This document shows, piece by piece, positions 60,147-60,686 of a stretch of 64,000 bases of DNA (its first letter is position 1; the number at the start of each line of letters is the position of its first letter). The notes beneath the pieces are model-generated. The model was given only the letters and a program-made list of their open reading frames with translations. It did no database searches and was not told the DNA's origin. The position numbers and the translations under genes are program-made. This DNA is from Escherichia phage Elenatom. The DNA lies in the sequence record PP925844.1; one strand, 5' to 3'.

Positions 60147-60324
60147 CTAAACGAATAGGTTCATGAATGCCATATCCTTGAACAGAAATTTCTGTCGTAG
60201 GATAAATTCCATTAATATCACCCATGTTCCATGCTTCGTTAAATTGCTGTTCGCCTGAATTACTAAACCACTCGGCGAAAGCATTTAGCACATCTTCAGA
60301 ACCTTCAATAATTATCTTTGCCAT
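60103..60324 (-). CDS. hypothetical small protein
   Basis: 73-aa ORF. Confidence 0.45.
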   Translation of the reverse strand: MAKIIIEGSEDVLNAFAEWFSNSGEQQFNEAWNMGDINGIYPTTEISVQGYGIHEPIRLVEYDLCTGEEVKYD

Positions 60325-60686
60325 TACAAACTCTCGGTGAAGGTACGAGCGATAACGTCGCGCTGCTGTTCCGGAGTCAGAGAGTTAAAGCGAACTGCAT
60401 AACCGGATACACGGATGGTCAGCTGCGGATATTTTTCCGGATGCTTAACTGCATCTTCCAGAGTTTCACGACGCAGAACGTTAACGTTCAGGTGTTGACC
60501 ACCTTCAATTTTAACTGTAGGCTGTTGCTCAATTTCAATTTCACGGGCATGCAAACCATAGAAAATTTCTGGGTCTACAAAAGAGTCCTCTTTAAAGGTT
60601 TTAGAGACAATAATTCGTGCTTGAATACCATCTTCAAAATAAATAGTACCTTTATGTGTGCCTTCAAGAATTTGATATGCTTTCAT
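60324..60686 (-). CDS. autonomous glycyl-radical cofactor (GrcA/YfiD-like)
   Basis: 120 aa; C-terminal glycyl-radical motif RVSGYAV; 3' half is GC-rich with E. coli-style codons. Confidence 0.8.

What the first reader, a model, noticed from the sequence alone, without database searches (positions are those of the whole stretch)
60324..60686. Glycyl-radical cofactor gene is a mosaic: phage-type 5' half joined to a host-like, GC-rich 3' half
The last ~55 codons ([60 protein letters not shown]) look like E. coli GrcA/YfiD, and the DNA encoding them (about 60324-60500) is conspicuously GC-rich with CTG/CGT/CCG codons. The 5' half and all flanking DNA are AT-rich with phage codon usage. This points to a recent host-derived segment replacing the radical-bearing domain. 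Its position near nrdD/nrdG fits a role in rescuing oxygen-damaged glycyl radical enzymes.
Basis: partly seen in the sequence, partly recalled or inferred. Interest (0 to 1): 0.65.

Follow-up and report, generated by a model that had tools for sequence, protein, structure and literature searches.

The report
Host gene patch inside phage grcA
This T4-type phage's gene for a small "spare part" protein, which repairs the host's oxygen-damaged pyruvate formate-lyase, contains 169 bases identical to E. coli's own grcA gene; related Klebsiella phages carry the Klebsiella version, so these phages have overwritten this segment with host DNA more than once.

Summary
ORF 60324-60686 (minus strand) is T4 gene vs.6 (Y06I), the phage homologue of E. 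coli GrcA/YfiD. Window 60340-60508 is identical over 169 nt to E. coli grcA. It is the only part of the 64 kb with megablast-level similarity to E. coli, and its most GC-rich 167-nt stretch. Both edges lie inside the gene. The 5' half has no nucleotide match to the host but is still a remote GrcA homologue. The last five codons encode the same residues as the host but differ at every synonymous site. So an old, diverged phage grcA homologue was patched by host DNA.

Amino-acid conservation does not explain this: RB16/RB43-type phages encode the same residues with dS about 1.6. Klebsiella Jiaodavirus phages carry a K. pneumoniae-type tract, and one metagenomic relative a Raoultella-like one. 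Between Tequatrovirus and Mosigvirus the tract is far more alike (dS 0.02) than the 5' half (0.42). Conversion is therefore host-specific and probably recurrent.

The protein's function is already known. I did not find the mosaic described in the searchable literature. The kind of event is known from cyanophage psbA. nrdD lies 16.6 kb away, so the proximity argument is weak.

The parts
60324..60686 (-). vs.6 / Y06I: phage autonomous glycyl-radical cofactor (GrcA/YfiD homologue), 120 aa
   Evidence: ORF list. 100% identical to phages Pinarejo and REP2, 99.2% to AR1 and T2, where it is annotated vs.6 / GrcA. Pfam Gly_radical E 2.5e-18. E. coli GrcA NMR structure 6OWR E 9.3e-42.
60509..60686 (-). 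Phage-type 5' part (codons 1-59 and the first base of codon 60): AT-rich, diverged GrcA N-terminal domain
   Evidence: GC 0.33, GC3 0.20. No nucleotide match to E. coli. Profile-profile homology to bacterial GrcA N-termini: probability 96.8%, E 2.4e-10, 29% identity. 87.8-100% identical among about 648 Tequatrovirus and Mosigvirus records.
60340..60508 (-). Host-derived conversion tract: 169 nt identical to E. coli (B-type allele) grcA. It encodes the whole glycyl-radical domain (E61 to the second base of F116).
   Evidence: 0 of 42 synonymous sites differ. GC 0.503, the highest in the window. It is the only megablast match to E. coli in the 64 kb.
60402..60404 (-). Codon of the radical-bearing glycine (G95 in RVSGYAV), inside the host tract
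   Evidence: Position computed. Motif aligned to GrcA and PflB.
60324..60339 (-). Phage-type 3' end: the third base of codon 116, codons 117-120 (TESL) and the stop. It has the same amino acids as the host but differs at five synonymous positions, starting with the TTC/TTT third base at 60339.
   Evidence: Fisher p 1.8e-7 against the core. TTC...GAG is shared with the Jiaodavirus phage-type end. 98 phage records carry exactly this end, and none carries the fully host-type end.
60103..60324 (-). Downstream 73-aa ORF (vs.5 position, AR1_122-like). Its ATG overlaps the vs.6 stop (TAATG). Host homology stops here, which sets the limit for the 3' end of any conversion tract.
   Evidence: phrog_1986 E 7e-44, function unknown. 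No similarity to the sequence downstream of E. coli grcA.

Best explanation
The gene is T4 vs.6 (Y06I), a phage copy of the host's autonomous glycyl-radical cofactor GrcA.

The protein's role is known from the literature and was not tested here. The host activase PflA puts a radical on its glycine. The small protein then docks onto host pyruvate formate-lyase whose own radical domain was cleaved off by oxygen, and restores activity. This presumably keeps fermentative energy metabolism running during infection under microaerobic conditions.

The history is inferred from the sequences. An ancestral T4-like phage captured a whole grcA long ago, and it drifted to phage composition. Later, homologous recombination between phage DNA and host chromosomal grcA overwrote the segment encoding the radical domain with host sequence. 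The likely route is strand invasion by the phage recombination machinery followed by copying of the host template, that is, gene conversion.

The patch is bounded by where alignable homology exists. Its 5' edge is at the start of the conserved EGGQHLNV block. Its 3' edge is a few codons before the stop, beyond which phage and host share nothing.

Once a perfect 170-bp homology exists, further conversions become easy. The tract is therefore kept close to the current host's allele, and it can be re-written after a host shift. This accounts for an E. coli-type tract in Tequatrovirus and Mosigvirus, a K. pneumoniae-type tract in Jiaodavirus, and a Raoultella-like tract in one Jiaodavirus relative.
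For: Shown:

1. There is 169 nt of exact identity to E. coli grcA, with 0/42 synonymous differences. The adjacent last five codons differ at every synonymous position.

2. Control: RB16/RB43-type phages encode an identical 60-aa domain with 27/41 synonymous differences (dS 1.56). Protein constraint therefore does not explain the identity (Fisher p 7e-12).

3. The N-terminal half is still homologous to the GrcA N-terminus. Full-length homologues with phage-type 3' halves (72-84% to any of 82 bacterial grcA genes) occur in other T4-like, T5-like and jumbo phages. The gene therefore pre-dated the patch.

4. Donor specificity: the KPV15, TU02, ValerieMcCarty02 and L176 tracts are 95-97% identical to K. 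pneumoniae grcA, with a 158-nt exact run in L176, but only about 87% identical to E. coli. 134 phage records are at least 90% identical to the K. pneumoniae tract. E. coli and K. pneumoniae differ at dS 0.57.

5. L175 and L176 have 98% identical 5' halves and identical 3' ends. Their tracts differ at 12 of 160 sites (7.5% of the core; 6.6% over the full 183 nt). L176 follows K. pneumoniae and L175 follows Raoultella (p 0.015).

6. Window against RB69: dS is 0.42 in the 5' half and 0.024 in the tract (p 4e-4).

7. Direction: the tract has host GC and codon usage. Among bacteria it diverges in step with species relatedness. No E. coli genome carries the phage-type end.

8. The five end-sites show a graded series of host and phage states among phages. 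98 records have all five phage-type, many have 2-3 mismatches to the host, one has a single mismatch, and none is fully host-type.

Function: Wagner et al. 2001, as cited in PMC8683613.
Against: Recurrent host-to-phage events within the E. coli phages are inferred, not shown. Phage-to-phage recombination could spread one converted tract between Tequatrovirus and Mosigvirus, and it could also generate the intermediate end haplotypes.

The shared polymorphic sites (tract position 39 CGT/CGC, position 12 CAA/CAG) are only suggestive. Phages also show CGG and CAT at position 39.

The tract does not always follow the isolation host. Yersinia, Hafnia and Citrobacter isolates carry the E. coli type, and a K. 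aerogenes phage carries the K. pneumoniae type.

No phage carries a Salmonella-type tract. Karamvirus-, Slopekvirus- and T5-like phages show none.

A minor Tequatrovirus clade (Nami) has a tract about as diverged as its 5' half.

No unconverted T4-type allele was found, so the first event and its exact 5' crossover cannot be reconstructed. Any adaptive value of matching the host is untested.
Confidence: 0.85

Rival explanations
1. One host-to-phage conversion in a common ancestor of the E. coli T-even phages, spread and reshuffled only by phage-to-phage recombination. The Klebsiella phages would represent one further separate event. On this reading there is no ongoing exchange with the host.
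For: All of about 648 T4-type alleles carry the tract. The intermediate 3'-end haplotypes can arise by recombination between two parental phage types. Nami-type tracts drift along with their flanks.
Against: The tract is 0-2 substitutions from E. coli in both genera, while their 5' halves differ at dS 0.42. A single old event should have accumulated comparable divergence from the host. Within Jiaodavirus, near-identical backbones carry tracts that follow two different host species.
Confidence: 0.2
2. There was no transfer. Extreme purifying selection on the radical domain, plus convergent codon usage, produces the nucleotide identity.
For: The domain is very conserved at the protein level across phages and bacteria.
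Against: RB16/RB43-type phages have the identical protein segment with dS 1.56 to E. coli. The last five codons, equally conserved as protein, differ at all synonymous sites. Klebsiella phages match K. pneumoniae at synonymous sites instead.
Confidence: 0.01
3. Domain capture or fusion: a host grcA (or pflB) 3' fragment was joined to an unrelated phage ORF, rather than converting a pre-existing homologue.
For: The 5' half has no Pfam hit on its own and no nucleotide similarity to grcA. It also pulls the protein below the NCBIfam GrcA cut-off (154.9 against 170 bits).
Against: The N-terminal half aligns to bacterial GrcA N-termini with hhalign probability 96.8%, and phmmer extends the GrcA alignment back to residue 22. 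Relatives with a phage-type 3' half have the same architecture. The tract is 100% identical to grcA against 80.6% to pflB and 75% to tdcE.
Confidence: 0.04
4. Transfer ran from phage to host. Alternatively, the identity is an assembly or contamination artefact.
For: None specific. Both would produce identity.
Against: The tract has host composition and is contiguous with the rest of a vertically inherited grcA in 5426/5426 E. coli genomes, none of which has a phage-type end. Bacterial orthologues diverge along species lines. The tract is present in more than 600 independently sequenced phage genomes, including the T4 reference.
Confidence: 0.01

Closest known systems
Bacteriophage T4 Vs.6 (Y06I), autonomous glycyl-radical cofactor
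   Same: It is the same gene. It sits in the same locus (vs.8-vs.7-vs.6-vs.5/vs.4-regB) and differs from the T4 protein at 2 of 120 residues (Q54P, R73H). T4's own copy has the same E. coli tract, 98.4% over 183 nt. The function, rescue of O2-cleaved pyruvate formate-lyase after activation by PFL activase, was shown biochemically for Y06I (Wagner 2001, cited in PMC8683613).
   Different: Only allelic detail differs. This window keeps all five phage-type synonymous sites at the 3' end, whereas T4 keeps two. The mosaic origin of the gene is not mentioned in the papers I could search. Older subscription-journal papers, including the T4 genome review and Mosig 2001, could not be read.
E. coli GrcA / YfiD (PDB 6OWR)
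   Same: It is homologous over the whole length. Residues 61-120 are identical, including the RVSGYAV radical glycine, and 169 nt are identical.
   Different: The N-terminal 60 residues are only about 29% identical and 7 residues shorter. The protein scores below the NCBIfam equivalog cut-off. The gene sits in a phage early-gene cluster and is translationally coupled to a phage ORF.
Intragenic host-phage recombination in cyanophage psbA/psbD (Zeidner 2005; Sullivan et al. 2006, PMC1484495)
   Same: Both involve an auxiliary metabolic gene of T4-like phages with patchy %G+C and segments exchanged between host and phage copies.
   Different: Here the patch is far cleaner: a 169-nt exact match, with both edges mapped to within a codon. 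The donor species is identifiable. The same segment is replaced in different phage genera by different hosts' alleles. The hosts are enterobacteria, and the phages carry hydroxymethylcytosine DNA and degrade host DNA (my own knowledge of T-even biology).

Membership tests
GrcA/YfiD autonomous glycyl-radical cofactor | C-terminal glycyl-radical domain (Pfam PF01228) with the RVSGYAV radical glycine | tested here: met
   Pfam Gly_radical E 2.5e-18, 67 bits against a cut-off of 22.2. G95 in RVSGYAV aligns to GrcA and PflB.
GrcA/YfiD autonomous glycyl-radical cofactor | Small stand-alone protein (about 14 kDa) without the catalytic barrel of a full glycyl-radical enzyme | tested here: met
   120-aa ORF with its own start and stop. 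It matches only the last approximately 60 residues of the 759-aa PflB.
GrcA/YfiD autonomous glycyl-radical cofactor | Full-length similarity at NCBI's equivalog threshold (TIGR04365 spare_glycyl) | tested here: not met
   154.9 bits against a curated cut-off of 170. The shortfall comes from the diverged N-terminal half. That half is still homologous by profile comparison (probability 96.8%).
GrcA/YfiD autonomous glycyl-radical cofactor | Radical installed by PFL activase, and activity restored to O2-cleaved PFL | not testable with these tools
   Reported for T4 Y06I (2 aa different from this protein) by Wagner et al. 2001, as summarised in PMC8683613.
Host-to-phage intragenic gene conversion (psbA-type mosaic) | A segment with host composition and near-identity to the host gene at synonymous sites, flanked on both sides within the gene by diverged sequence | tested here: met
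Host-to-phage intragenic gene conversion (psbA-type mosaic) | Identity not explained by protein constraint | tested here: met
   Phages with the identical amino-acid segment have dS 1.56 to E. coli.
Host-to-phage intragenic gene conversion (psbA-type mosaic) | Donor matches the phage lineage's host, with independent events in different lineages | tested here: met
   E. coli-type tract in Tequatrovirus and Mosigvirus, K. pneumoniae-type in Jiaodavirus, Raoultella-like in L175. No Salmonella-type tract exists.
Host-to-phage intragenic gene conversion (psbA-type mosaic) | Ongoing or recurrent exchange within one phage lineage | tested here: inconclusive
   The dS contrast (0.42 against 0.024), the graded end haplotypes and the shared polymorphic sites fit this. 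Phage-to-phage recombination is not excluded.

The most novel reading that the evidence does not exclude
The radical-domain segment of vs.6 may be a self-reinforcing 'homology trap'. After a first conversion, the perfect 170-bp match to the host chromosome would make T-even phages re-copy this segment from whichever host they are replicating in. The phage's spare-part domain would then track the host's GrcA allele (LEDAVKH in E. coli phages, LLDAVEH in Klebsiella phages). This could be advantageous because the domain must be recognised by the host's PflA and fit the host's PflB. It would also give a natural, countable record of recombination between hmC-containing lytic phage genomes and the host chromosomes they are degrading.
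Probability: 0.35. Interest if true: 0.7.

Novelty: new member of a known kind. Interest (0 to 1): 0.5.

Why it matters
T4 is the textbook strictly lytic phage. It destroys host DNA, and its own genome is chemically distinct from it. It is usually treated as evolving almost apart from the host chromosome. Here one 169-nt stretch in 64 kb is letter-for-letter host DNA, and sister phages on Klebsiella carry their own host's version.

This gives a clean, datable example of host-to-phage gene conversion in enterobacterial T-even phages. It parallels the much-discussed psbA exchanges in marine cyanophages, but in a system where every component can be manipulated genetically.

It also offers a simple assay for the rate of phage-host recombination: silent markers in host grcA, read out in vs.6. 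It raises a testable question about whether a 'spare part' protein must match the host's PflA/PflB. Practically, it warns that host-prediction or contamination filters based on nucleotide identity to bacteria will flag this locus in genuine lytic phage genomes.

Tried and rejected
1. Chance or compositional coincidence was rejected. This is the only megablast match to 5426 E. coli genomes in the whole window.

2. pflB or tdcE as donor was rejected. They are 80.6% and 75.3% identical, against 100% for grcA.

3. Protein constraint was rejected by the dS controls.

4. A search for a Salmonella-derived tract in any phage found nothing above 84%.

5. The search for host-type tracts in the other T4-like groups found nothing. 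These were the contigs L089-L100, L107-L124 and the T5-like L125-L150. Best identities were 72-84% to an 82-species grcA panel, with exact runs of 32 nt or less. From contig lengths I take L089 and L093 to be CC31 and PG7, L096 and L098 to be RB16 and RB43, and L100 to be KP15. That identification rests on my memory of genome sizes and was not verified.

6. Short-patch conversion around the host-diagnostic codons (LEDAVKH / LLDAVEH) in RB16/RB43 against KP15 is not distinguishable from background. About 3-4 of 10 codons differ there, against about 5 of 10 overall (read from the alignment).

7. Host-allele matching (B, K-12 and O157 alleles) as proof of multiple events was downgraded to suggestive, because non-host variants occur at the same codon.

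8. Promoter and terminator scans around the gene gave no more than the shuffled expectation.

9. Literature: no description of the mosaic was found. The T4 genome review, Mosig 2001 and Bowman 2019 are not held.

10. L111, a 'viral' contig with a full-length grcA 91% identical to Yersinia, was set aside as probably bacterial DNA.

Full report
**What is there**

The window is a T-even phage genome segment of genus Tequatrovirus. The ORF is 100% identical to phages Pinarejo and REP2, and 99.2% identical to AR1 and T2. ORF 60324-60686 on the minus strand (120 aa) lies in the vs.8-vs.7-vs.6-vs.5/vs.4-regB cluster. It is annotated vs.6 / autonomous glycyl radical cofactor GrcA in AR1, RB69 and T4.

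It has a Pfam Gly_radical domain (E 2.5e-18). It matches the solved E. coli GrcA structure 6OWR at E 9e-42, with residues 61-120 identical to GrcA.

T4 Y06I is this gene and differs at two residues. It was shown to be activated by PFL activase and to restore activity to oxygen-cleaved pyruvate formate-lyase. This comes from Wagner et al. 2001, as summarised in PMC8683613. So the gene and its biochemical role are already known.

**Checking the observation**

blastn of the ORF against 5426 complete E. coli genomes hits grcA in every one. It covers only ORF nt 179-363, at 96.8-97.3% identity. A codon alignment and run mapping show 169 consecutive identical bases. These are ORF nt 179-347, window 60340-60508.

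They are followed by five codons that encode the same FTESL but differ at every synonymous position: TTC ACC GAG AGT TTG against TTT ACT GAA AGC CTG. Downstream of the stop there is no similarity at all.

The tract has GC 0.503, against 0.333 in the 5' half and 0.344 for the window. It is the most GC-rich 167-nt stretch in the 64 kb (profile). It uses CTG, CCG, CGT and CGC where the phage normally uses TTA, CTT, CCT and CCA.

Megablast of the whole window against E. coli finds nothing else.

**Why this is transfer and not constraint**

Over the 55 core codons, 0 of 42 synonymous sites differ from E. coli. Phages of the RB16/RB43 type encode exactly the same 60-residue domain but differ from E. 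coli at 27 of 41 synonymous sites (dS 1.56; p 7e-12).

T5-like, jumbo and other T4-like phages also carry the gene. Their 3' halves are only 72-84% identical to any of 82 bacterial grcA genes. The donor is grcA itself, since pflB is 80.6% and tdcE 75.3% identical.

The direction is host to phage, for three reasons:
- The tract has host composition.
- Bacterial orthologues diverge along species lines (E. coli against K. pneumoniae dS 0.57, against Salmonella 1.2).
- No E. coli genome has the phage-type end.

**Conversion of an existing homologue, not a fusion**

The 5' half alone has no Pfam hit. However, a profile of phage N-terminal halves aligns to a profile of bacterial GrcA N-termini over 59 columns (hhalign probability 96.8%, E 2.4e-10, 29% identity).

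The whole gene is therefore an old, diverged grcA homologue whose radical-domain segment has been overwritten. The diverged N-terminus is also why the protein falls just below NCBIfam's GrcA equivalog cut-off (154.9 against 170 bits).

**Host specificity and recurrence**

All of about 648 phage records with a T4-type 5' half (87.8-100% identity) have the E. coli-type tract at 93-100%.

Klebsiella phages of genus Jiaodavirus have the same gene architecture. This group includes KPV15, TU02, KP185, ValerieMcCarty02 and the metagenomic contig L176. Their tract begins at the same GAAGG and is 95-97% identical to K. pneumoniae grcA. L176 has a 158-nt exact run, and KPV15 has one mismatch in about 160 nt. 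The same tract is only about 87% identical to E. coli. It ends about eight codons before the stop in phage-type sequence. 134 phage records are at least 90% identical to the K. pneumoniae tract.

The metagenomic Jiaodavirus-type contig L175 has a 5' half 98% identical to L176 and an identical 3' end. Its tract differs from L176 at 12 of 160 sites. At those sites L176 follows K. pneumoniae and L175 follows Raoultella (91.3% against 88.5% overall; p 0.015).

In the opposite sense, the window and RB69 (Mosigvirus) differ at dS 0.42 in the 5' half but only 0.024 in the tract (p 4e-4). Both patterns are what exchange with host genes produces, and neither fits vertical descent.

A further possible case is contig L103, apparently from a phage of Pasteurellaceae. 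No phage carries a Salmonella-type tract.

**Edges of the patch**

The 5' edge coincides in both lineages with the start of alignable homology, the EGGQHLNV block.

At the 3' end, the five synonymous sites show a graded series among E. coli phages:
- 98 records have all five in the phage state, like this window.
- Hundreds have two or three mismatches to the host.
- One has a single mismatch.
- None is fully host-type.

This fits conversion tracts that must resolve before homology runs out at the stop codon, which overlaps the start of the next phage ORF (TAATG). Phage-to-phage recombination between two end types could also produce the same series.

E. coli alleles differ at tract positions 12 and 39. 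B has CAA/CGT, K-12 has CGC and O157 has CAG. Phages are polymorphic at the same two sites. This is suggestive only, because CGG and CAT also occur in phages at position 39.

**Mechanism (inferred)**

T-even phages replicate through recombination, and fragments of the degraded host chromosome are present during infection. This is my own knowledge of T4 biology.

A phage 3' end within vs.6 could invade host grcA, copy it, and return to the phage template. That would give a conversion patch bounded by homology. The first event needed pairing at about 75-80% identity. Afterwards, 170 bp of perfect identity should make repeats far easier, which would explain why lineages either have the tract or lack it.

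Whether matching the host's allele is advantageous is untested. The phage tracts do carry the host-specific residues, LEDAVKH against LLDAVEH. Even RB16/RB43 (E. coli) and KP15-type (Klebsiella) phages, which lack nucleotide identity to their hosts, match them at these residues.

**The nrdD/nrdG argument**

nrdD is at 41893-43710. That is 16.6 kb and about 35 genes from vs.6, so proximity is not evidence. The demonstrated partner is host PFL.

**Novelty**

The gene and its function are known. I found no description of the host-derived patch or of its host-specific recurrence in the searchable literature. Key older papers could not be read. T4 is so well studied that an earlier mention is quite possible.

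The type of event is established for cyanophage psbA/psbD (PMC1484495). I therefore class this as a new member of a known kind, of moderate interest. Its value is as an unusually clean and experimentally tractable case.

Noticed in passing
L108 (Klebsiella phage KPV15, IMG/VR copy) about 520-580: The vs.6 reading frame is broken by a 1-nt shift just upstream of the junction between the phage-type 5' half and the K. pneumoniae-type tract. The 5' part reads in frame 2 and the tract in frame 1. This is either a sequencing error or a pseudogene.
   Followed up: partly
window 61704-62674: denV (61704-62120) lies directly next to lysozyme e (62180-62674). T4 has ipII and ipIII between them. AR1 has Ip4 there and no denV. 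This is a hypervariable internal-protein region.
   Followed up: no
window 19996-20200: This is the second most GC-rich spot of the window (0.49). It lies inside the 475-aa ORF 19771-21198, which from its sequence I take to be the gene 41 helicase. It has no megablast match to E. coli.
   Followed up: partly
L125-L150, L107, L109, L110 (IMG/VR contigs): T5-like phages (about 105-122 kb) and jumbo phages (345-357 kb) also encode GrcA-like proteins. Their N-termini are unrelated in appearance and their 3' halves are saturated at synonymous sites relative to hosts. The spare-part gene is therefore widespread in virulent enterobacterial phages. One contig (IMGVR_UViG_2974601769) yielded two loci, L143 and L149.
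   Followed up: partly
L103 tract positions 97-167 (IMGVR_UViG_3300008607_000007): A possible short conversion patch from Haemophilus parainfluenzae grcA. It has a 53-nt exact run and 1 mismatch in 71 nt. Sister contigs lack it.
   Followed up: partly
L170 (Escherichia phage Nami, Tequatrovirus ecnp1) 601-783: The tract has about 10 scattered differences from E. coli, including N67H and I91S, and is about as diverged as its 5' half. It may be a lineage that has not been re-converted, or a lower-quality assembly. 13 records fall in this 90-95% class.
   Followed up: partly
PLSDB records CP125156.1 (5.37 Mb), NZ_CP093490.1, LR134122.1: These records are labelled plasmids but carry chromosomal grcA-srmB, so they are chromosomes or chromosome fragments. 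The K. aerogenes NCTC10006 grcA is frameshifted in the record (annotated as 324 nt).
   Followed up: no
L111 (IMGVR_UViG_2706794630_000006, 19 kb): This 'viral' contig carries a full-length bacterial-type grcA that is 91% identical to Yersinia. It is probably bacterial or prophage-flanking DNA.
   Followed up: no
window 60318-60707 (+): A 129-aa ORF lies antisense to vs.6. Nothing suggests it is a gene. It appears to be a by-product of the opposite-strand coding sequence.
   Followed up: no
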